Assembly: GCA_034007585.1 (NCBI GenBank)
Contig: JAVEQP010000001.1
Coordinates: 5,031-69,030, forward strand
Origin: Lentimicrobium sp.
GTDB lineage: Bacteria; Bacteroidota; Bacteroidia; Bacteroidales; Lentimicrobiaceae
Length of the DNA stretch: 64,000 nt
Direction of reading: 5' to 3'
The notes under the pieces are model-generated. The model did no database searches. It had not been told where the DNA came from and was given only the letters and a program-made list of their open reading frames with translations. The position numbers and the translations under genes were made by a program. Numbering within the stretch: the stretch's first letter is position 1; each line of letters opens with the position of its first letter. Shown here in pieces: positions 31,653 to 54,743 of the stretch.

Positions 31653-31673
31653 ATTATGTAAATTTAATTTCCC

Positions 31674-31731
31674 CTACTCATGTGGCTTTTCGCATCCGCC
31701 CCGTTTTTTAAGTGGTTTCTGGTCTCCACTA
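31674..31731 (-). repeat. Leader module R1, copy A
   Basis: Minus strand TAGTGGAGACCAGAAACCACTTAAAAAACGGGGCGGATGCGAAAAGCCACATGAGTAG, 21 nt before ATG 31652; near-identical to 35505-35563. Confidence 0.9.
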
Positions 31732-31756
31732 TTTCAATTAAACTGTTTTTCTGCAA

Positions 31757-35482: not shown

Positions 35483-35504
35483 CTTTTATTTGTATTTATT
35501 TTTT

Positions 35505-35563
35505 CTACTCATATGGCTTTTCGTATCCGCCCCGTTTTTTTAAGTGGTTTCTGGACTCCACTA
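35505..35563 (-). repeat. Leader module R1, copy B
   Basis: Minus strand TAGTGGAGTCCAGAAACCACTTAAAAAAACGGGGCGGATACGAAAAGCCATATGAGTAG, 22 nt before ATG 35482. Confidence 0.9.
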
Positions 35564-35669
35564 CATAGAATAGTGTATGGTTTAATCCACTCGTTTAGCT
35601 TTTCACTTCCACCCCGGTTTTCAGTCTGTTCAAGTCAGGTAAAACGCCCCACACTGAAAACTCACCCTG

Positions 35670-44345: not shown

Positions 44346-44451
44346 AGGTGAAATCTCAACTTTTTTGCGAAATTACGGTTTTTTGCGCTTAAATGTATGC
44401 GTGCCGAAAGGATTCAGGCTTACTTGTAAATAAAAATCTGAAAAACAAGCA

Positions 44452-44490
44452 CAACAAAAGGAGGCAACCGCTGATTGCCTCCTTTTGTTG
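44452..44490. terminator. Strong (bidirectional-type) intrinsic terminator after rpmH
   Basis: CAACAAAAGGAGGCAA-CCGCTGA-TTGCCTCCTTTTGTTG, a perfect 16-bp stem. Confidence 0.85.
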
Positions 44491-44677: not shown

Positions 44678-44781
44678 AGTCGTATTTTTTGGGACTGCAA
44701 AGATAGTAAGAAATCTAAATCAGCCAAACTATGAAGGCACTTTTTTTTAATCAATAGATAAAAGCAGGTAAATGGCTGTAA

Positions 44782-44854
44782 ATCTGTGATCTGTGATCTG
44801 TGATCAGTTATCAGTGATGAATAAACAGATGACAGATTACAGATTACAGATCAC
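44782..44854. repeat. Inverted heptamer tandem repeats
   Basis: (ATCTGTG)x3 facing (ACAGATT/G)x3-4 downstream of pepD. Confidence 0.75.
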
Positions 44855-44867
44855 TCATTGCTTGCAT

Positions 44868-46439: not shown

Positions 46440-47060
46440 TTATTTCCACAAATGGACAACCGCCTTACTTTCAAAAAATGCTTCCTGAAACCATGCACTT
46501 AGCAGATAGGTATTGTATTGATAATCAGTTGATTTTAGCTCTTCATCAAAGTCGCCGCCTTTCAGGTAAACTATCCCATGATTAAATCCCTGCTGACCTC
46601 CCGGTTTAATATTTTTTGCTGTGAGTTTTATAAATTCCGGCATAGCGGTAACTGCGCGGCTAACGATAAAGTCATATTTCCCGGTTACCTGTTCAATCCG
46701 GGCATGTTCGGCAGTAACGTTGTTTAACCCAAGTGCCTGCGCTATCTGATTCACCACCCTGATTTTTTTCCCGGTAGCATCTACCAGATGAAAATTTACG
46801 TCCGGAAAAAGTATTGCCAGCGGGATTCCGGGAAACCCGCCTCCGGTGCCTACATCCAAAACACGAGTGCCAGGTGCAAAATCAATTACTTTTGCTATGC
46901 CCATTGAATGCAACACATGCCGCTCATACAGATGGTCAATGTCCTTGCGGGAAATTACATTAATGGCTTCGTTCCACGTCCGGTAGAGTGTGTCTAACTT
47001 TTCGAGGGCATCAAGCTGTATGTTCGTCAGTGATGGAAAGTAGCGTTTAATCAGTTCCAT
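46440..47060 (-). CDS. rsmG: 16S rRNA m7G527 methyltransferase
   Basis: HVLHS, LDVGTGGGFPGIPLAI, VSRA and LKGG motifs. Confidence 0.95.
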   Translation of the reverse strand: MELIKRYFPSLTNIQLDALEKLDTLYRTWNEAINVISRKDIDHLYERHVLHSMGIAKVIDFAPGTRVLDVGTGGGFPGIPLAILFPDVNFHLVDATGKKIRVVNQIAQALGLNNVTAEHARIEQVTGKYDFIVSRAVTAMPEFIKLTAKNIKPGGQQGFNHGIVYLKGGDFDEELKSTDYQYNTYLLSAWFQEAFFESKAVVHLWK

Positions 47061-48441
47061 TGTTTTTCATTTTATAGGGCAATGTAATGCTTACTGTGGT
47101 GCCTTCATTCAACTGTGAATTGATTTCCATTATTCCCTCATGAAGTTTCACAATCTTTGCTATAAGCGAGAGTCCAATGCCATGACCGTGCATATGAACT
47201 GCATTACTTGCCCGGTAAAACGGTTCTCTGATGAGTTGTAATTCCTCCGGTGATATCCCTATGCCCTTGTCTTCAACCATAATATGAACGCTGTCGGATT
47301 TGAAGATAAGTGATACCTTAACAGGCCTGCCCGATGAAAATTTCATCGCATTGTCAATCAGATTGATGAAAATCAGCTTCAACAGGTTTTCGTTGCCATA
47401 GAGCGAAAGTTCCTGATCTTCATTTTCCGTTTCATCCAAAATAACGGTGTCAACCAGATTTTCGGGATGCAATACCTGAAATTCCGATTGAGTCTGCAGC
47501 AGCAATTCATCCAGTCTTACCGGTTTTATACTCAGTGATCTGATGTCTTGCTCTGAACGTGCAATTTCCAGCAAATTATTGGCCAGCGAAGTCAACCCGC
47601 GTGCATCATCCAGCAAGGAGTTAAGTACGGTTTCATATTCCCCGGGTTCTCTTTTCTTCATCAATGCCACTTCAATTTGACTGTTAATGGCTGCCAGCGG
47701 CGTGCGCAATTCATGGGAAGCATTGGAAACAAAGCTTTTTTGTATCATAAACGCTTTTTCCAGCCGGTCAAGCATCAGGTTAAAGGTGGTGGCCAGTTGT
47801 GAAATTTCGTCATTGCCGTTACCCGCGTTTAACCGCTGATTAAGATTAGATGCGGTAATGGTGGAAACCTGACTCACCACATTGCTAATGGGTGTAAGTG
47901 CTTCTTTGGCAAAAACCATACCTATAACAATGGAAGAGACCATAGCTACCACAAGACCTATCATCAATACCAGCAATAAGTTATTAATCCTGGTTTTGCC
48001 ATAAATGTCAGTTGCAGAAGCAATTACAATAAATCGTCTGAGCCCGTTTGTATAGAGTAATCCCACTGCCTCTCGCTCCCCCTGGCTGAATATGTATTGA
48101 CCCCGGTTCATAATTTTGGTAATCAGGGCCTCGTCAATGTGAAGGTTTGAAGGTCCGCCGGAAACATAAATGCGGCTCCGCTTAAAGTAATCGAACACCA
48201 CCACTTCCGCATCGCCCAGTGAGCTATAATTGGAACTGTCAATGATGCGCATCAGGTTGTTGTTGATCTCCTTAACATCAATGAGTAACATGGCGGTATT
48301 GATGGCTTTTTCACTCAGGCGGTTGGTAAACTCCTGCTTTCGGTGATTGGCCGAAAACAAAAATACAGCTACCGAAAACACCACCAGGATGGCGCCGGTA
48401 AGCATGGCAAACTGCAGACTGAGTTTAGTTCTGATTTGCAT
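47047..48441 (-). CDS. HAMP-domain sensor histidine kinase
   Basis: Two TMs, HAMP domain, FVSNASHELRTPL, NLIDNAMKFS, DKGIGI and GIGLSL. Confidence 0.93.
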   Translation of the reverse strand: MQIRTKLSLQFAMLTGAILVVFSVAVFLFSANHRKQEFTNRLSEKAINTAMLLIDVKEINNNLMRIIDSSNYSSLGDAEVVVFDYFKRSRIYVSGGPSNLHIDEALITKIMNRGQYIFSQGEREAVGLLYTNGLRRFIVIASATDIYGKTRINNLLLVLMIGLVVAMVSSIVIGMVFAKEALTPISNVVSQVSTITASNLNQRLNAGNGNDEISQLATTFNLMLDRLEKAFMIQKSFVSNASHELRTPLAAINSQIEVALMKKREPGEYETVLNSLLDDARGLTSLANNLLEIARSEQDIRSLSIKPVRLDELLLQTQSEFQVLHPENLVDTVILDETENEDQELSLYGNENLLKLIFINLIDNAMKFSSGRPVKVSLIFKSDSVHIMVEDKGIGISPEELQLIREPFYRASNAVHMHGHGIGLSLIAKIVKLHEGIMEINSQLNEGTTVSITLPYKMKNNGTD

Positions 48442-49129
48442 CGTCGTCGGCTTTTAATATGTATCCCATGCCGATGTGGGTGTGTATGAGTTTTACCGGA
48501 TAGTTCTTGTCAATCTTTTTTCTCAGAAAGTTAACATATACTTCAATTACGTTGGTACCGGTATCAAAAGTAATGTTCCAGATGTTTTCGGCAATATCAG
48601 CTTTTGAAACTACCTTTCCCTTATTTCGCACCAAAAATTCGAGCAACAGGAATTCCTTGGCCGTAAGATCAATTGAAATGTTACCGCGCTTTACTGTTTT
48701 ACTGTCCAGATCTATTTCCAGATCAGCTACCCGAAGTACCCGCTGGCTTTTCGGATCAGGTTGAACTCGTTTTAGCAATGCTTTTATGCGTGCAAGCAAT
48801 TCTCTGAACTCAAAAGGCTTAACAATGTAGTCATCTGCACCCTGATCAAAACCCAGCAGCTTATCCTCGGTACTTCCCATGGCGGTAAGCATGATAATGG
48901 GCACCGAAGCGTTTTTCTTGCGGATATGCGCACAAAGCTCATAACCATTAATTTGTGGGAGGTTTATGTCGAGAATGATCACATCATAATCTTTGGCATC
49001 ACTCAGGCGTTTTCCAATGAAACCATCGTAAGCCACTTCAGTAGTAAATCCATTTTCTTCGAGGCCTTTGCTTATAGAGTCGGCCATTTTAACATGATCT
49101 TCAACGATGAGTATTGCTGGTTCGGCCAT
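48425..49129 (-). CDS. OmpR/CusR-type response regulator
   Basis: REC domain plus winged helix (LTAKEF.LL...TNVIEVYVNFLRKKID). Confidence 0.93.
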   Translation of the reverse strand: MAEPAILIVEDHVKMADSISKGLEENGFTTEVAYDGFIGKRLSDAKDYDVIILDINLPQINGYELCAHIRKKNASVPIIMLTAMGSTEDKLLGFDQGADDYIVKPFEFRELLARIKALLKRVQPDPKSQRVLRVADLEIDLDSKTVKRGNISIDLTAKEFLLLEFLVRNKGKVVSKADIAENIWNITFDTGTNVIEVYVNFLRKKIDKNYPVKLIHTHIGMGYILKADDDANQN

Positions 49130-49362
49130 TTTTATCGGGAGTTTTATTGTAGAATAATCGCACTAAGTTACACTATTTTGAAAGAATCTCAGCCCGGTTG
49201 TCTCTTTTTATGTCTTGTGCCTATTGATTGGCTGAATTAATTTGACAAAATTAATAACATTCCTGCAGTAGTATCGTTTAAAATCTGATTGTAGCCTTGT
49301 TTCACAGAACGAATAAGGATATTTTGTATTTTTGACCATTATTTTTGAATGATGCTCTGCAT

Positions 49363-50346
49363 ATGCGAAAGATAGTTTCCCTCACATTTTTTTTGATGAT
49401 TGCCTTTGTGTTCACCGGAAATACACAAAATGCTCCATCCAACATTAGTTATACTGAATACATTGAATTATACCGCGATATTGCGGTGAGAAAGATGAAA
49501 GAATATGGCATACCGGCCAGCATAACTCTTGCGCAGGGATTGCTGGAGTCAGGGAGTGGTAATTCTAACCTTGCCCGGAATGCCAATAACCATTTTGGCA
49601 TAAAGTGTCACAAAGAATGGACAGGAGATACTTATATTCAAGACGATGATGCCAAAGATGAATGTTTTCGCAAATATAAATCTGCGGAGGAGTCATTTAA
49701 TGATCATTCCTATTTTCTCACCTCCCGACCGCGCTATGCCGACCTGTTTAATCTGGAAGTTAAAGATTATAAAGGCTGGGCCTACGGATTAAAGAAAGCG
49801 GGTTATGCCACCAATCCGCGGTATGCGGAAATGCTCATCAAGATTATTGAAGAAAATGAGTTATTCCTGTATGATTCAGGAGTAAAAAGGCCATTGGCCA
49901 AACACGAACCGGCTCCAAAACCAGCAAGGAAAAAATCTGATCAAACCATGCCTACTGCCGGTTTAAAGCTACTCGCCAATAATCTTAAATATGAAGAAGT
50001 GGCTCCGGGAAACCGGGCCATTTACAGTAATAATAATATAAGGCTGACTTTTGCCCGTCAGAATGATGATATTGAAAGGATTGCTGAGGACCTTGGAATT
50101 CATACTTTTCAACTGATTAAATATAACGATCTTAAAAAACATGAGCGCATTGAGGAAGGGCAGGCCATTTATGTGGAACCAAAAAAGCGCAAAACCAGCC
50201 AAAGTAGTCACCAGGTAAGCCAGGGCGAAACCATGCGTGATATCTCACAATATTATGGCGTTAAATTAAAGCTACTTTATAAATGGAATCAATTGTCTTC
50301 AGAAAATGAACCTATGGCCGGGGACAATATTAAATTGAAAAAATAA
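49363..50346 (+). CDS. GH73 glucosaminidase with LysM domains
   Basis: IPASITLAQGLLESG, NNHFGIKC, GYATNP.YA and a C-terminal LysM. Confidence 0.92.
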   Translation: MRKIVSLTFFLMIAFVFTGNTQNAPSNISYTEYIELYRDIAVRKMKEYGIPASITLAQGLLESGSGNSNLARNANNHFGIKCHKEWTGDTYIQDDDAKDECFRKYKSAEESFNDHSYFLTSRPRYADLFNLEVKDYKGWAYGLKKAGYATNPRYAEMLIKIIEENELFLYDSGVKRPLAKHEPAPKPARKKSDQTMPTAGLKLLANNLKYEEVAPGNRAIYSNNNIRLTFARQNDDIERIAEDLGIHTFQLIKYNDLKKHERIEEGQAIYVEPKKRKTSQSSHQVSQGETMRDISQYYGVKLKLLYKWNQLSSENEPMAGDNIKLKK

Positions 50347-50471
50347 TGACAATAAAATGCTGATAATCAATTGAAAAGAAAATATCTTGTTTTTTTTTAT
50401 AAAAGAGGGTTACTTTTTCAAATTTTAGTGATAAACACTTGACAACAAATTTTCAAAATCAGTTTTACAAT

Positions 50472-50590
50472 GATCCTGGCATGTCTGCGTAAAACATCCC
50501 TGATTTAGAATGGTGGTGTCATGGTTAAATAATATTTGGTTAATAATTTGGTTGAAAAACGCTGTCTCCCGATGGCGTTTTTCTATTTTT
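50472..50590 (+). ncRNA. Candidate sRNA, copy 1 of a tandem pair
   Basis: 112 nt with 4 mismatches to copy 2; 5' hairpin, three GGTT boxes, and terminator AAAAACGCTGTC-TCCC-GATGGCGTTTTT. Confidence 0.65.
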
Positions 50591-50813
50591 AGGCGGTTTG
50601 AAAGGGCTAATAGATGCTTAAAAGTTTAATAATAAAAAATTTTATTGCTTTTTTTGTTCTTTGTTTTAGATCTAATCGCCTAATGTACAGAAGGTAAGGT
50701 TAAATATTTTAGATTTTTACCGATTAATCTATTTTTTTTTCAAAAAAAGGAGTTACTTTTTTGTTTTTTAGTGATAAACCTTTGACAACAAATTTTAAAA
50801 TCGGTTTTGCGGA

Positions 50814-50930
50814 GATCCTGGCATGTCTGCGTCGAACATCCCTGATTTAGAATGGTGGTGTCATGGTTAAATAATATTTGGTTAATAATTTGGTTGAAAA
50901 ACGCTGTCTGACGATGGCGTTTTTCATTTT
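50814..50930 (+). ncRNA. Candidate sRNA, copy 2 of a tandem pair
   Basis: 342 nt downstream of copy 1; terminator loop is TGAC. Confidence 0.65.
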
Positions 50931-51039
50931 ATTTTGGCGGACAAGCTTGTTAATACAAAGTATCTTATTTCTCTATGCCGGTGAATTCGGAGGAAACAAA
51001 GTTATGAGCAGCGATTTGTCTATTCCGTTAAATAAAAGA

Positions 51040-53736
51040 CTATTTCAGTGTAGTAAATACCGGTTTGTTATTTAAGGAGGTTACCATAACAATCTGCCGG
51101 CTTCCGCCTGGATTGAAAATAATGGGGTCAGTATCGCTTCGAAGCTTTTTCAATGGGATCTGTTCGCCCTTACTGTTCATCAGATAAACCAGACCCGACC
51201 GGGTATCGCGCACTGCAATCCATCCTTTGCCCAGGGAGGAGGCATACATAAAGGGCTTACCCAGATTGCTTCCCTTTAATTTGAGTTCTACAATACTCTT
51301 TTTCATACGGGTGTAAACTCCAAGCTTTTCCTTGCCGGCAAACATGAAATCTATGCTTCCATCTCCATCAAAGTCCGCATATTCAAAGTAAGGATGATCT
51401 CCGAAATGCCCGAAAGAGCTAAAGGAAATTACACCGTTATCCGTGATGTATGCAAGTCTGCCATCGTCGGTTGCTGTCAGAAATATGCCTTTCGCATTGG
51501 TACGGTTCTCAAATATTCCGGCATGTGCCGACTTTTTGAATCCCTTGTAGATCCTTATTCTTTCCCGGCCGCGTCGGTCTGTAATCAGCAAATTACCATT
51601 TGACGAGCTAAAAAACAGGTAATCTTTGCCGGCATTTCGGATAAACTTCGGTGCCATTGACAGTGCATCCGTTTGCGGATTTTGCCAGTCGGGCAATGCT
51701 TTTCCATCTGTAGTAATGTTGTGTATCTTCTTTTCAGGGCTTTGATAGATAATGCGATAGTCTTTTCGCCGATCATAATCAAAGAAACCTGATGCACTGC
51801 CCACTCCGGCCGGCAGTTTTATTTTCTTTAGCAGGGTTCCTTTCGACGATAGTTGATAAAGGTGATTTTGTCCAATCACAATATAACGCGGTTGATGGCG
51901 CTGTGTATATCCGGTAGTGAAGAGTTGACCGGTAAGGGGCTCAGGCGATTGCCATTCAAAAATTTTATTACCCTTATAGTCGTTGATACTCAGCGAATTT
52001 TTACCAAAAAAGACAACCTGGCTTTCTCCGGCCTTTTCACCCCCGATAATAAGGGGTGTAAAGAAAATAGCTGTTTCCGAGCCAATGGTCGCCGTAGGTG
52101 CAGTACTTACCGACTGATCTGGAATGGAATCTGTAGTTCCATCTTCATTTTTAAGCGCAAGTGATTTTTTGGGCGCTTCAAAATAAAGAGTGCCGCTGCT
52201 GTACATAAATGGTTCACCGGCACTTACCTTAAACGAAAGCATCTGGCATCGTTGTAGCCAGGTTATCCAACCATCCGGTTTGCCATTCTTATCTAAAGGG
52301 GTATGCATTGCAAAGAAATTAGCTTTTTCCTGAGCGTTGTTTAGCAGTCCGGCTATTGAGGCTGCCTGATCCCGGACTCCGGGTGAATTTAAGGTCTTAT
52401 CATAATTTTTTAGTGCAGACAAAGAGGAGGAGAATGCGAGTACAGGTGGCCGGTTCAGGCAATAAACGGGAACTTTTGTGTCAAACAGATTTCCAAATAG
52501 TTTTTTAAAAAGCTTTTGGTCTGTAACTTTTGCTATCCCGGGTTCTATCGGCTCCAGAAAACGGTTAAGCGCTGAGGCTGTGCTATCCATTTGCTTATTT
52601 TCAATCACGATAATTTCCTGCTTATTTTTATCGCTTAGTTTGAAAGAATAATTTCCCAGCCAGGATTCCAAATGCTCCCTAAGTCTGAAAATCTCTTTCG
52701 TACCTGAATTGTTTACCAAATCGTAACCAGTAGTATGAATGGTATCACTGCCAATCATTGTTTCCATTGATTTTGACGGATTGCCAAGCAAAAATCCATA
52801 GATGGAGGTAATATTTTCCGGAATTCCCATTATCTGCAAAGGCATAGGGACTTCCTGAGAAAATAGCGCTATGGGATGTGATGTGCCGGTAAATCCATTG
52901 AGCAGCAGTTTGTCCTTTCTTATGGTGAGGTCAAGGGTGGTCCAGCCTTTCTTAAACAGAGCGGCCGGTGTTTCGGCAGGTCCTTTCCCTAAAAGCAGGC
53001 CAATCAGCTCAGGCGAACGGATAATCAGTGATGCATCCACCTTTTTACCGGAAGTCCGGGCAAGGGCCATAAAGAGTTCATCATGAAGTAGATTGGACTT
53101 CGTTTTCATGGCTCCAAGCGACGAGCGTAACAGTGCTTCATCCGGGCTTAAGCAAAGTAAACCCTTATAAATAAAGTAATGTACACATTTTCCTCTCCGG
53201 CAAAATGTGTAAAAGTCGGCAACGGAGTGATTTACTTTCGAAAAGTCATAGCCCCGGTTTTCAGCCCAGGCTTTACAATGGCGGTTGAACTTATCCGGAC
53301 TTTGTTTGCCAATGCTGAACGCCAGCAGCCACTGTTGATTCCCTGCACTATCGGGCACGAAACCTGTCATAAAGGGTTTGCTTTCCAACAGATTTCTAAA
53401 TAGTTCATCTTCAGCACCTAATGAGTCGGCTATGGCGGTAGTCTGCTCAAACCCTGACTTACTTTCAGGATCGGATAAAACTTCGCTTAATCCCGAAGCA
53501 CGGGTGGTGGCTATAAAATCAGCAGCATTGGTGGCACCGATTACCATTTGGGTGTTGCCGGGGAAAGCTTCAGGCAGTTGAGCTACCGGGGATTTTATAA
53601 ACAGGTAATAACCTCTGATCTGAACAAATACGAACACTACTAAAATTAATGCAGCGAGGTAAAGCAGGTATTGAATTTTTTTATTCATGGGAGATGTCAT
53701 CATAGATGCCCAAATGTACTTCAAAATGGAGTTCAT
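51040..53736 (-). CDS. Large membrane-anchored protein (DUF3352-like N-terminal part, beta-propeller-like C-terminus)
   Basis: N-terminal TM; C-terminal DFDGDGSIDF-type blade motifs. The real start is probably a few codons downstream. Confidence 0.65.
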   Translation of the reverse strand: MNSILKYIWASMMTSPMNKKIQYLLYLAALILVVFVFVQIRGYYLFIKSPVAQLPEAFPGNTQMVIGATNAADFIATTRASGLSEVLSDPESKSGFEQTTAIADSLGAEDELFRNLLESKPFMTGFVPDSAGNQQWLLAFSIGKQSPDKFNRHCKAWAENRGYDFSKVNHSVADFYTFCRRGKCVHYFIYKGLLCLSPDEALLRSSLGAMKTKSNLLHDELFMALARTSGKKVDASLIIRSPELIGLLLGKGPAETPAALFKKGWTTLDLTIRKDKLLLNGFTGTSHPIALFSQEVPMPLQIMGIPENITSIYGFLLGNPSKSMETMIGSDTIHTTGYDLVNNSGTKEIFRLREHLESWLGNYSFKLSDKNKQEIIVIENKQMDSTASALNRFLEPIEPGIAKVTDQKLFKKLFGNLFDTKVPVYCLNRPPVLAFSSSLSALKNYDKTLNSPGVRDQAASIAGLLNNAQEKANFFAMHTPLDKNGKPDGWITWLQRCQMLSFKVSAGEPFMYSSGTLYFEAPKKSLALKNEDGTTDSIPDQSVSTAPTATIGSETAIFFTPLIIGGEKAGESQVVFFGKNSLSINDYKGNKIFEWQSPEPLTGQLFTTGYTQRHQPRYIVIGQNHLYQLSSKGTLLKKIKLPAGVGSASGFFDYDRRKDYRIIYQSPEKKIHNITTDGKALPDWQNPQTDALSMAPKFIRNAGKDYLFFSSSNGNLLITDRRGRERIRIYKGFKKSAHAGIFENRTNAKGIFLTATDDGRLAYITDNGVISFSSFGHFGDHPYFEYADFDGDGSIDFMFAGKEKLGVYTRMKKSIVELKLKGSNLGKPFMYASSLGKGWIAVRDTRSGLVYLMNSKGEQIPLKKLRSDTDPIIFNPGGSRQIVMVTSLNNKPVFTTLK

Positions 53737-53843
53737 AATTTAGCCGCGATGAGTAACTAATCAACAATGCATTGTTTATAACATTTCGGATTTTTTATGT
53801 AGATGAAAAAAAATGCTTAGCTTTGAATGATAATTCTTTTTCA

Positions 53844-54743
53844 ATGATTTCTGCACATTCTTTAACCTCACTTCTTGAAGTGTTGCTGGTGGCTGCACTT
53901 TTAAGCCTTTTTACGGGTGCTTCAGCGCAAATGTATGATTATAGTATAAAGGAAGACTGCCTTTCGCGAAGTGGTTTCGAATATGGCGCCGTAGCCGGAT
54001 TTTATCTGCCCGGAAAAGGCTCGGCCCATTTTTATTCAGGTAAACCTGGAGAGGAGAATAATGTGGAATATATATTTAAAAACAAAACTTGGTATGAAGA
54101 AATATATCGCAATCTCGATGCACATTATAAGGTCTATATCAAGGGTTATCCTGATAATATAAAATACACACCAGCCTTTGAATTTGGCATGTTTTTTAGT
54201 TATAATTTTAATTGTCGCACTAGTTTGTATTTTCAGTTTTCCTATGTAAGACTTCTAGTCAAAGACATTATTACATTACAGGTGGACTCAATTACTTATC
54301 TTGCCGAGCCCGACATTCGGCTTTTTGGCATCAGGGGAGAGGAAGAGCGTAACATATTAGATGTGGCTGTGAATCATTATTTTGGCAATAGTCCTGTAAT
54401 CAGGCCTATGATCGGTCTGGGCATCAATATGAACAATACGCTGGTTAAGAAGCATGTTTTGCGTATTGCCGACAAAGATTATAATCTGGTAAACGTGTAT
54501 GGAAACCGGCCTTACATTCCCGGAGGCACACAGCAGGGATACGATATCCGGCAGGGAGGTATCGGTTTTGGAGTATTTGCTACGGTGGGTGCCCGCCTCG
54601 AATTCAGCAAATTGGTAGCGATTGAACCCGGGTTTACCTTTTATTATAAGCAGATAAATCTTGAATCAGCCAAAGGGTTTTATCCCCAGTACAATCTGTT
54701 TGTTCGCCTGTGTTTTCGCGATCTGATTTCTTTCAACGATTAG
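53844..54743 (+). CDS. Putative outer-membrane beta-barrel protein
   Basis: Signal peptide ending ASA-Q, followed by alternating aromatic beta-strands. Confidence 0.6.
   Translation: MISAHSLTSLLEVLLVAALLSLFTGASAQMYDYSIKEDCLSRSGFEYGAVAGFYLPGKGSAHFYSGKPGEENNVEYIFKNKTWYEEIYRNLDAHYKVYIKGYPDNIKYTPAFEFGMFFSYNFNCRTSLYFQFSYVRLLVKDIITLQVDSITYLAEPDIRLFGIRGEEERNILDVAVNHYFGNSPVIRPMIGLGINMNNTLVKKHVLRIADKDYNLVNVYGNRPYIPGGTQQGYDIRQGGIGFGVFATVGARLEFSKLVAIEPGFTFYYKQINLESAKGFYPQYNLFVRLCFRDLISFND

What the first reader, a model, noticed from the sequence alone, without database searches (positions are those of the whole stretch)
50405..50930. Tandem duplicated ~112-nt sRNA candidates with triple GGTT boxes
Seen: two units 342 nt apart. 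From GATCC to the terminator they differ at only 4 of 112 nt, and all four differences lie in predicted loops (AA/CG in the 5' hairpin; TCCC/TGAC in the terminator). The upstream ~65 nt are more diverged but still homologous (GTTACTTTTT...TAGTGATAAAC..TTGACAACAAATTTT.AAAATC.GTTTT) and lack a canonical TAnnTTTG. The single-stranded middle repeats GGTTAAATAATATTT-GGTTAATAATTT-GGTT. Inference: paralogous sRNAs under purifying selection, driven by an alternative sigma or activator. The multi-site layout suggests sponging an RNA-binding protein or redundant seed pairing.
Basis: partly seen in the sequence, partly recalled or inferred. Interest (0 to 1): 0.68.

Follow-up and report, generated by a model that had tools for sequence, protein, structure and literature searches.

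The report
Tandem pair of new Bacteroidales sRNA genes
The two repeats are tandem copies of a previously undescribed, roughly 150-nt structured small-RNA gene that relatives of Lentimicrobium keep at the same chromosomal spot; this is a solid new sRNA family, but its targets and expression are still untested.

Summary
The repeat is real. There are two direct units 342 nt apart, with 4 differences in the 112 nt from GATCC to the terminator.

Comparison with 15 homologous units from 11 other syntenic loci shows that the RNA starts about 35 nt upstream of GATCC and is about 150 nt long. It has three parts:
- a 5' rod whose helices covary and which is capped by an invariant 8-nt loop, CCUGGCAU;
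- a single-stranded tract with three GGUU(A/G)A boxes;
- an intrinsic terminator.

The AA/CG difference between the copies lies in a stem and is partly compensated, not in a loop.

Each copy carries a conserved non-canonical promoter-like element (RTTACTTTTT-N11-GATAAA). It lacks the Bacteroidota TAnnTTTG box that neighbouring genes have.

The gene sits between a glucosaminidase/LysM gene and a convergent 898-aa membrane protein gene, next to an OmpR-family two-component system. It is a single copy in Lentimicrobium and duplicated in the window's clade. The units are more conserved (89-90%) than the flanking coding sequence (79-81%).

No Rfam family matches. FopS scores 16-20 bits against a threshold of 56.

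The most likely function is a trans-acting base-pairing sRNA; an RNA-binding-protein decoy is the main rival. No usable transcript-end data exist. This is a new member of a known kind and of moderate interest.

The parts
50409..50435 (+). Promoter-like element of copy A: GTTACTTTTT-N11-GATAAA, with no TAnnTTTG box
   Evidence: RTTACTTTT heads all 17 homologous units compared: searches cover the 16 in the family set, and adds L058. The 10-mer RTTACTTTTT is in 16 of them; L053 has RTTACTTTTC. In the window the 10-mer occurs 6 times against 0.83 expected, and the other 4 sites are not followed by GATAAA and all but one lie inside long ORFs. Its function as a promoter is inferred.
50436..50590 (+). 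sRNA copy A, about 150 nt. The 5' end is predicted to within about 4 nt, and the 3' end is the U-tail of the terminator.
   Evidence: Covariance model R1 scores 157 bits at 50436-50587. The MFE fold gives z = -2.3. The covarying outer helix starts at 50440.
50440..50521 (+). 5' rod domain of copy A. The outer helix pairs UGACA (50440-50444) with UGUCA (50517-50521). Inside it are the middle helices AAAAUCAG/CUGAUUU and the apical hairpin stem GUUUUAC/GUAAAAC.
   Evidence: RNAalifold on A3. Pair counts on A4: helices 1-4 are 87-96% paired, with 13 pairs changed on both sides.
50475..50482 (+). Apical 8-nt loop CCUGGCAU. It is invariant in all 12 group-1 units and appears as YCCGGCAA or UAUGGCUU in diverged relatives.
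   Evidence: Alignment A3/A4 columns are invariant. The hairpin closing the loop has 5 of 8 pairs with double changes.
50522..50553 (+). Single-stranded tract with three GGUU boxes (50523, 50538, 50550). AUUUGGUUAAU is invariant in group 1.
   Evidence: It is unpaired in the consensus and in most single-sequence folds. GGUU(A/G)A boxes are kept in diverged units L053-L056 and L058.
50554..50590 (+). Intrinsic terminator of copy A: a 13-bp stem, loop UCCC, and a U-tail. An A-tract on its 5' side makes it potentially bidirectional.
   Evidence: Terminator scan. 8 of 13 pairs show double changes across relatives.
50591..50751 (.). Inter-unit spacer, not conserved
   Evidence: It differs in length (about 160, 225 and 490 nt) and cannot be aligned between the window, L039 and L010.
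50752..50778 (+). Promoter-like element of copy B: GTTACTTTTT-N11-GATAAA
50779..50935 (+). sRNA copy B. Outer helix 50783-50787 / 50859-50863; apical loop 50817-50824; GGUU tract 50864-50894; terminator 50895-50926 plus U-tail.
   Evidence: Model R1 scores 162 bits at 50779-50929. Terminator scan. Fold z = -2.2.
47047..49129 (-). Context: histidine kinase (47047-48441) and OmpR-family response regulator (48425-49129), co-conserved with the sRNA
   Evidence: Pfam and NCBIfam. The response regulator is 83-84% identical to those of Lentimicrobium-type loci. It is present in every locus that has the sRNA and whose held sequence reaches that far, and absent in the 3 loci that lack it.
49363..50346 (+). 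Context: upstream glucosaminidase/LysM peptidoglycan hydrolase gene
   Evidence: Pfam. It served as the synteny anchor.
51040..53736 (-). Context: convergent 898-aa protein with an N-terminal membrane anchor and no known domain. In relatives its stop codon abuts or overlaps the sRNA terminator.

Best explanation
The finding is two tandem copies of one independent small-RNA gene that belongs to a previously undescribed family of Lentimicrobium-related Bacteroidales.

Each copy has its own non-canonical promoter-like element (RTTACTTTTT-N11-GATAAA). Each copy would give a transcript of about 150 nt with three parts: a 5' rod of four covarying helices capped by an invariant loop (CCUGGCAU), an unstructured tract with three GGUU(A/G)A boxes, and an intrinsic terminator.

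Shown here: the repeat, its conservation, synteny, covarying structure, terminator, absence of a conserved ORF, and absence from Rfam.

Inferred: the RNA acts in trans. Its exposed GGUU-box tract, and possibly the apical loop, would base-pair with A/C-rich translation-initiation regions of mRNAs and block translation. This is how the Bacteroides sRNAs GibS and FopS work in a phylum without Shine-Dalgarno sequences. Targets are possibly envelope proteins.

Also inferred: the two copies raise dosage or allow slightly different control, and the unusual promoter is served by an alternative sigma factor or an activator. The co-conserved neighbouring OmpR-family two-component system is the obvious candidate.

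Confidence that this is a genuine conserved structured sRNA gene pair is about 0.85. Confidence in the base-pairing mechanism specifically is about 0.45-0.5.
For: - Repeat and terminators.
- Syntenic homologues lie between the glucosaminidase gene and the convergent p898 gene in 12 distinct loci including the window (17 units). Three species have two copies, the rest one.
- The units are more conserved than flanking coding sequence, and the spacer cannot be aligned.
- Structure: 10 of the 12 group-1 units give this rod as their MFE fold and the diverged group-2 units give an analogous one (rod, large apical loop, tract, terminator); z ranges from -2.2 to -4.9. The consensus has 92.8% of cells paired and 21 of 36 pairs with double changes, against 3-7 in slid controls and 0 of 500 shuffles. 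A model-fitted alignment of 16 units gives 29 of 36.
- A covariance model built from the 12 group-1 units recovers the diverged syntenic units at E = 5e-5 to 4e-3 and finds nothing in loci that lack the two-component system.
- There is no conserved ORF. Copy A's 12-codon ORF has no ATG in copy B. The AA/CG difference puts a stop codon into the short ORF in copy A that is open in copy B (read directly).
- Neighbouring genes have TAnnTTTG boxes and the sRNA units do not.
- The published mechanism of GibS and FopS is translation block by a single-stranded seed at start-codon regions (PMC7366714, PMC11697453).
Against: - There is no direct evidence of a discrete transcript. Metatranscriptome assemblies cover the locus only as low-depth contigs continuous with neighbouring genes.
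- The 5' end is inferred from covariation and promoter geometry only.
- Target scans of the 54 translation-initiation regions in the window, and of the co-conserved neighbours in 8 loci, gave nothing above background.
- A short motif repeated three times with variable spacers is as typical of protein-binding RNAs as of seeds.
- Most covariation separates only a few clades, so the number of independent events is small.
Confidence: 0.5

Rival explanations
1. Protein decoy or ligand. The three GGUU(A/G)A boxes, and perhaps the invariant loop, would be binding sites for an RNA-binding protein. In Bacteroidota this would most plausibly be an RRM-1 protein of the RbpB type. The RNA would titrate or recruit that protein rather than pair with mRNAs.
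For: Across the family only the short boxes are conserved, while their spacing (9-16 nt) and the spacer sequence vary. In B. thetaiotaomicron, RbpB binds the single-stranded 5' part of FopS and GibS (PMC11697453). That FopS segment resembles the tract here more than dinucleotide shuffles do, with p = 0.002-0.03 in 8 of 10 members.
Against: There are only three boxes. No RbpB motif is defined at box resolution. RbpB affinity for its sRNAs is low (micromolar). The resemblance to FopS is weak and absent in L054 and L055. No protein data exist for this organism.
Confidence: 0.2
2. Locally acting element rather than a trans regulator. It could be a 3'-UTR-derived or read-through product of the glucosaminidase gene. 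Alternatively, it could be a structured bidirectional terminator/antisense module that controls the convergent p898 gene.
For: In most relatives the terminator abuts or overlaps the p898 stop codon (L041 overlaps by 4 nt; L010 is 22 nt away). It has A- and U-tracts on both sides. In the window no terminator separates the glucosaminidase stop codon from copy A. The p898 gene is co-conserved with the RNA.
Against: Copy B lies behind copy A's terminator yet keeps the same upstream motif, so each unit appears to have its own promoter. L040 has a hairpin with a T-run directly after the glucosaminidase stop codon. A terminator alone does not explain about 110 nt of covarying rod, invariant loop and boxes. 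In the window copy B ends 105-114 nt from the p898 stop codon.
Confidence: 0.1
3. A DNA-level or non-functional feature. This would be a duplicated intergenic segment, such as a regulatory-protein binding array, that is conserved for reasons unrelated to an RNA product.
For: No transcript ends were observed. Some helices are also DNA inverted repeats.
Against: Compensatory changes, including G-U intermediates on one strand only, preserve pairing while the sequence changes. A strand-specific terminator with a U-tail is kept in every homologue. Conservation exceeds that of neighbouring coding sequence.
Confidence: 0.05

Closest known systems
FopS (RF04319) and GibS sRNAs of Bacteroides thetaiotaomicron
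   Same: Same order (Bacteroidales). Both have an A/U-rich single-stranded tract directly before an intrinsic terminator. The tract shares CAUGGU...AUUU..GGUUAAUA with the FopS consensus. Both have paralogous copies. The proposed mode of action is the same: seed pairing at start-codon regions of mRNAs that lack Shine-Dalgarno sequences, with an RRM-protein partner. GibS also has a non-canonical promoter.
   Different: It scores 16-20 bits against a gathering score of 56, and the diverged member tested (L056) gives no hit. The RNA is about 150 nt with a covarying 5' rod and an invariant apical loop, against 65-70 nt with no 5' structure. FopS has a canonical TAnnTTTG promoter and this RNA does not. 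FopS has 12-14 dispersed copies in Bacteroidaceae, while this RNA has one syntenic locus with 1-2 tandem copies. In FopS the seed lies at the extreme 5' end.
OmrA/OmrB of Enterobacteriaceae (from my own knowledge; analogy only)
   Same: Both are two adjacent, tandemly duplicated sRNA genes with near-identical functional parts and more divergent other parts. OmrA/OmrB are controlled by an OmpR-family two-component system and act on envelope protein mRNAs. Here an OmpR-family two-component system and envelope-type genes are co-conserved next to the pair.
   Different: There is no sequence or structure similarity and no Rfam hit. Control by the neighbouring two-component system is untested here. 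Bacteroidota lack Hfq.
PrrF1/PrrF2 of Pseudomonas aeruginosa (from my own knowledge; analogy only)
   Same: Both are tandem, nearly identical sRNA genes separated by a short spacer, each with its own promoter and terminator. This arrangement allows extra dosage and, potentially, a read-through product.
   Different: They are unrelated in sequence and phylum. No read-through transcript is shown here.
CsrB/RsmZ-type protein-sponge RNAs
   Same: Both carry a short G-containing motif repeated in accessible RNA.
   Different: The motif is GGUU rather than GGA. There are three copies in a linear tract rather than many in hairpin loops. No Rfam hit was found. CsrA is not known in Bacteroidota (from my own knowledge, not tested here).

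Membership tests
FopS (Rfam RF04319 BTncRNA_FopS) | Covariance-model score at or above the curated gathering score of 56 bits | tested here: not met
   The two window copies score 19.6 and 18.0 bits (E = 2.6 and 5.3). L041 scores 16.2 bits. L056 gives no hit. Unrelated families such as sroD, STnc40 and GcvB score as well or better on the same stretches.
FopS (Rfam RF04319 BTncRNA_FopS) | Architecture: about 65-70 nt, with an unstructured 5' seed (R1') at position 1-21 followed only by a terminator hairpin | tested here: not met
   The RNA is about 150 nt with a covarying four-helix 5' rod before the single-stranded tract. The FopS description comes from PMC11697453.
FopS (Rfam RF04319 BTncRNA_FopS) | Canonical sigma-ABfr promoter (TAnnTTTG at -7) | tested here: not met
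   None of the 17 units has TAnnTTTG at a suitable distance, while neighbouring genes in the same loci do.
FopS (Rfam RF04319 BTncRNA_FopS) | R1/R1' seed sequence shared with GibS | tested here: inconclusive
   Local alignment to the FopS consensus 5' part beats dinucleotide shuffles at p = 0.002-0.03 in 8 of 10 members. It is not significant in L054 and L055, and the CAU of CAUGGU is not kept in the Lentimicrobium clade.
FopS (Rfam RF04319 BTncRNA_FopS) | Dispersed multicopy family (12-14 per genome) bound by RbpB | not testable with these tools
   Only 64 kb of this genome is held, and the model finds just the tandem pair in it. The genome-collection pattern scan found no dispersed copies in the one related genome it matched (UBA5281), but the pattern was strict. 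No protein-binding data exist.
Any Rfam 15 family | A match at the family's gathering score | tested here: not met
   The whole window at gathering threshold gives only two DUF805 motifs elsewhere and nothing at 50400-50940.
Rho-independent (intrinsic) terminator | G+C-containing hairpin followed by a U-run on the transcribed strand, with pairing kept in relatives | tested here: met
   There are 13-14-bp stems followed by T-runs at 50554-50583 and 50895-50926. 8 of 13 pairs show double changes across relatives.
Trans-acting base-pairing sRNA (generic kind) | Own promoter and terminator, no conserved ORF, and a conserved accessible segment | tested here: inconclusive
   The terminator, the lack of a conserved ORF and the conserved accessible tract and loop are met. 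The promoter is inferred from a conserved motif only. No transcript ends or targets were obtained.
OmrA/OmrB-like two-component-system-controlled sRNA pair (analogy) | Transcription dependent on the OmpR-family regulator | not testable with these tools
   Only co-occurrence is available. The two-component system, the RNA, p898 and p300 are present together in every RNA-bearing locus whose held sequence reaches those genes, and absent together in 3 loci. No repeated regulator-type half-sites were recognised in the promoter.

The most novel reading that the evidence does not exclude
The RNA is the output of the neighbouring, highly conserved OmpR-family two-component system and retunes envelope protein synthesis. 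Its GGUU-box tract would be an ancient relative of the FopS/GibS R1 module. That would mean a 'GGU-box sRNA plus RRM-protein' regulatory system predates the split of Lentimicrobiaceae and Bacteroidaceae, and is not restricted to gut Bacteroides as currently reported.
Probability: 0.12. Interest if true: 0.65.

Novelty: new member of a known kind. Interest (0 to 1): 0.42.

Why it matters
RNA regulation in Bacteroidota is poorly charted. The phylum lacks Hfq, ProQ, CsrA and Shine-Dalgarno-led initiation, and almost everything known comes from gut Bacteroides.

This finding gives a well-supported structured sRNA family in an environmental lineage: Lentimicrobium relatives from digesters, landfill and manure. 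It has clear testable parts, namely an invariant loop, three boxes and an unusual promoter, and a natural single-copy versus tandem-copy comparison.

The RNA is co-conserved with a two-component system and with envelope-type genes, which suggests a concrete regulatory circuit to test. Its weak likeness to the FopS seed region offers a handle on how such sRNA modules evolve.

It is not a surprise in kind. New sRNA families are found regularly.

Tried and rejected
1. Known RNA family. Rfam at gathering threshold found nothing at the locus. In E-value mode only noise-level hits appeared, driven by terminators and A/U-rich tracts, FopS among them.
2. This is rejected because covarying helices need the upstream ~35 nt. 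An alternative consensus fold in which AAUCA pairs with the second GGUU box has no double changes in its distinctive long-range helix, so it was set aside.
3. Sigma-54 or sigma-70-type promoters. TGGCAT-N-GC has the wrong spacing for sigma-54. The sigma-70 scan gave no more sites than shuffles.
4. Small protein. No ORF is shared even between copies A and B (read directly).
5. Further copies. There are none in the 64-kb window; the best extra hit, at 44391-44489, is just another terminator. The genome-wide pattern scan gave 37 chance hits and one true relative. The metagenome scan gave 7 true loci, all syntenic.
6. Targets. Duplex scans of the tract and the loop against 54 start regions in the window, exact and near-exact anti-box and anti-loop searches, and scans of each species' own neighbours (RR, HK, glucosaminidase, p898, p300) showed no conserved signal. 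The L054 loop against its own RR start codon (z = -2.6) is not reproduced in other species.
7. Expression. RNA runs hold the region only as assembled contigs continuous with neighbours or broken at repeats and A-runs, so transcript ends cannot be read.
8. The promoter motif elsewhere. The other four RTTACTTTTT sites in the window lack the GATAAA partner, and all but one lie inside long ORFs. In related loci the motif is constant only at the sRNA.
9. The PM2 promoter of B. thetaiotaomicron. Its sequence is not given in the accessible text, so no comparison was possible.

Full report
**1. The observation**

Window 50384-50942 holds two direct units on the + strand. The repeat finder reports a 141-nt repeat at 91% identity (50448-50588 / 50790-50930) and, directly upstream, a 74-nt repeat at 81% (50384-50457 / 50727-50800). 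The spacing is 342/343 nt.

In the pairwise alignment, the stretch from GATCC (50472 / 50814) to the end of the terminator stem differs at four positions only: AA/CG and CC/GA. Both units end in a strong intrinsic terminator at 50554-50583 and 50895-50926; shuffles give a mean of 0.5 such sites. The tract GGTTAAATAATATTTGGTTAATAATTTGGTT is present in both. So the repeat, its coordinates, the four differences and the GGTT boxes are real.

**2. Context**

Upstream lies a glucosaminidase/LysM peptidoglycan hydrolase gene (49363-50346, +). It is preceded divergently by an OmpR-family response regulator and a HAMP/HisKA histidine kinase (48425-49129 and 47047-48441, -). Their closest named models are the heavy-metal/CusRS-type systems, below cut-off.

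Downstream, a convergent 898-aa ORF (51040-53736, -) has no Pfam or NCBIfam match and carries an N-terminal membrane anchor. It is followed divergently by a 300-aa protein with a signal peptide and a beta-barrel-like C-terminus. No + strand gene follows unit B, so the units are not leaders of a downstream gene.

**3. Relatives**

- A strict pattern scan of the genome collection found one true relative among 38 hits: Bacteroidales bacterium UBA5281 (L010). It has the same gene order and also two units, 697 nt apart.
- Homologues of the glucosaminidase led to more loci. The closest named ones are Lentimicrobium sp. at about 61% identity.
- The gene order in all of them is M20 peptidase - GidB - HK - RR - glucosaminidase - [unit(s)] - p898 (convergent) - p300 - RNase HII.
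- L039 has two units. L040 has one. The Lentimicrobium-type loci (L041/42/43/47, L044, L046, L049) each have one.
- A metagenome pattern scan added L044-L049 and L051, all syntenic.
- More diverged loci (L053-L056, L058) have a shorter, recognisably related unit at the same place.
- Three more distant glucosaminidase loci (L052, L057, L059) lack the two-component system, p898, p300 and the unit together.

Between the window and UBA5281 the units are 89-90% identical. The flanking glucosaminidase and p898 coding sequences are 79-81% identical, and the inter-unit spacer cannot be aligned. That is purifying selection on the units, including their upstream ~30 nt.

**4. What the unit is**

RNAalifold was run on 12 units aligned from the upstream motif to the terminator. 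It does not start the structure at GATCC. The consensus has these parts:

- An outer helix pairs UGACA (50440-50444) with UGUCA (50517-50521). In the Lentimicrobium clade it is CAACA/UGUUG, which is two adjacent double changes.
- Two middle helices follow: AAAAUCAG/CUGAUUU here, GACCGG/CCGGUC in Lentimicrobium.
- An apical hairpin has a stem that covaries at 5 of 8 pairs.
- Its 8-nt loop, CCUGGCAU (50475-50482; 50817-50824), is invariant.

The conserved string GATCCTGGCATGTC is therefore the top of a hairpin, not a 5' end.

Counted on a trimmed alignment, this model has 92.8% of cells paired and 21 of 36 pairs with changes on both sides. Partner-slid controls give 3-7 such pairs at 39-51% pairing, and no shuffle out of 500 reaches the observed values.

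A competing fold proposed on the trimmed alignment pairs AAUCA with the second GGUU box. It has no double change in that helix.

Single-sequence MFE folds of the family give a common architecture: 10 of the 12 group-1 units fold into this rod, and the diverged group-2 units give an analogous one, with z-scores from -2.2 to -4.9. In L054 and L056 the apical loop carries UCCGGCAA or CCCGGCAA; in L055 it carries UAUGGCUU.

A covariance model was built from the 12 close units.
- It scores the window copies at 157 and 162 bits.
- It recovers the diverged syntenic units at 27-33 bits (E = 5e-5 to 4e-3).
- It finds no other copy in the window and nothing in loci without the two-component system.
- The model-fitted 16-sequence alignment adds further pair types to the outer helix. 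That alignment is biased towards the model.

The RNA is thus about 150 nt: roughly 50436/50440-50590 for copy A and 50779/50783-50935 for copy B.

The AA/CG difference between copies lies in the lower stem of the apical hairpin, which is GUUUUAC/GUAAAAC in copy A. In copy B the upstream ACAAU>GCGGA change creates GCG/CGU pairs. So the 'more diverged upstream part' is RNA and partly compensates. The statement that all four differences are in loops holds only for the terminator loop.

No ORF is shared between the copies. The MILACLRKTSLI ORF of copy A has no ATG in copy B. The AA/CG change puts a stop codon into the short ORF in copy A that is open in copy B (read directly).

**5. Promoter**

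All 17 units are preceded by RTTACTTTT (RTTACTTTTT in 16 of them, RTTACTTTTC in L053). Eleven nt further on comes GATAAA, GATATA or TATAAA. This box ends 4 nt before the outer helix.

The geometry puts the elements at about -31 and about -8 from the first paired base. That fits the -33/-7 layout of Bacteroidota promoters, but the sequence is not TAnnTTTG. In the same loci the glucosaminidase and p898 genes have canonical TATCTTTG-type boxes, and the RR gene has TAATTTAG.

The factor is unknown, and the transcription start is inferred rather than measured.

**6. The duplication**

Differences in the terminator loop and the promoter follow position: A resembles UBA1 and L039a, while B resembles UBA2 and L039b. 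The RNA bodies are more alike within a genome; UBA1 and UBA2 differ at 4 sites, against 9-13 between genomes.

The duplication therefore predates the three two-copy species, and the bodies have been partly homogenised since. L040 and the Lentimicrobium clade carry one copy.

**7. Known families**

Rfam 15 at gathering threshold finds nothing at the locus. With permissive thresholds both copies hit FopS (RF04319) at 19.6 and 18.0 bits, against a gathering score of 56. L041 hits at 16.2 bits and L056 not at all. Unrelated enterobacterial sRNA models score the same or better, mostly through the terminator.

A direct local alignment of the FopS consensus 5' part to the non-terminator body of the RNAs beats dinucleotide shuffles at p = 0.002-0.03 in 8 of 10 members. 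The shared string is CAUGGU..AUUU..GGUUAAUA.

FopS RNAs are 65-70 nt, unstructured at the 5' end, driven by canonical promoters, dispersed in 12-14 copies, and reported as conserved within Bacteroidaceae (PMC11697453). The RNA here fails those membership features. It may share a motif or a remote ancestor with FopS, but it is not a FopS. A search of the held paper library found nothing on small RNAs in Lentimicrobium.

**8. Mechanism**

Established: a conserved, structured, non-coding unit with a terminator and two conserved accessible elements.

Inferred as most likely: a trans-acting sRNA that uses the GGUU-box tract, and possibly the loop, to pair with A/C-rich start regions. This is how GibS and FopS work in a phylum without Shine-Dalgarno pairing.

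The main rival is a decoy or ligand for an RRM-type protein. Only short boxes with variable spacing are conserved, which suits a protein site at least as well as a seed.

A purely local role is less likely, because each copy keeps its own upstream motif and about 110 nt of covarying structure. Such a role would be a 3'-UTR product, or a bidirectional terminator/antisense module for p898, whose stop codon abuts the terminator in most relatives.

I could not find targets. Scans of the window's 54 start regions and of the co-conserved neighbours in eight species gave nothing reproducible.

**9. Expression**

Runs that hold the sequence are landfill, bioreactor, manure and wastewater metagenomes. 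RNA runs hold it only as assembled contigs, which carry no strand information. They are continuous with neighbouring genes or broken at repeats and A-runs. They neither show nor exclude a discrete transcript.

**10. Verdict**

This is a real and well-conserved new sRNA family, tandemly duplicated in this lineage. It is co-conserved with an OmpR-family two-component system and envelope-type genes.

It is a new member of a known kind and of moderate interest. The function is a reasoned inference, not a result.

Noticed in passing
window 31667-31734 (-) and 35498-35566 (-): Two DUF805 RNA motifs (RF03081) lie well above the gathering score: 81-82 bits against 51. Each sits upstream of a minus-strand ORF.
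   Followed up: no
window 44775-44865: An imperfect palindrome made of short tandem units (CTGTGAT x3 ... CAGATTA x2, CAGATCAC). It lies between an rpmH-like small ORF and the stop codon of the M20 peptidase gene.
   Followed up: no
window ~49150-49180 (- strand, upstream of the RR gene) and the same place in L039-L056: The motif TGTnTAATTTAGTG is conserved upstream of the OmpR-family regulator gene in all eight loci compared. It is probably the -7 box of the two-component operon. The regulator itself is unusually conserved: 83-84% amino-acid identity, where the neighbouring glucosaminidase has about 61% and p898 about 37%.
   Followed up: partly
window 47047-54743, and loci L039-L041, L044, L046, L049, L053-L056, L058 versus L052, L057, L059: HK-RR, the sRNA, the 898-aa membrane-anchored protein and the 300-aa signal-peptide/beta-barrel-like protein are found together in every sRNA-bearing locus whose held sequence reaches them, and are missing together in the three others. 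In those three loci, GidB-glucosaminidase is followed directly by RNase HII or another gene. The pattern suggests one functional, envelope-related module.
   Followed up: partly
L041 5300-5304, L010 1948-1971, L056 5174-5180: The sRNA terminator overlaps or abuts the stop codon of the convergent p898 homologue and has A/U tracts on both sides, so it probably terminates both genes. In the window the gap is larger, about 105-114 nt.
   Followed up: partly
window 50702-50857: One metatranscriptome run (X25) has a 156-nt contig covering the non-conserved spacer, the promoter of copy B and the 5' half of copy B. This could be read-through from copy A (a longer tandem transcript) or DNA carry-over. 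Depth is about 3.
   Followed up: no
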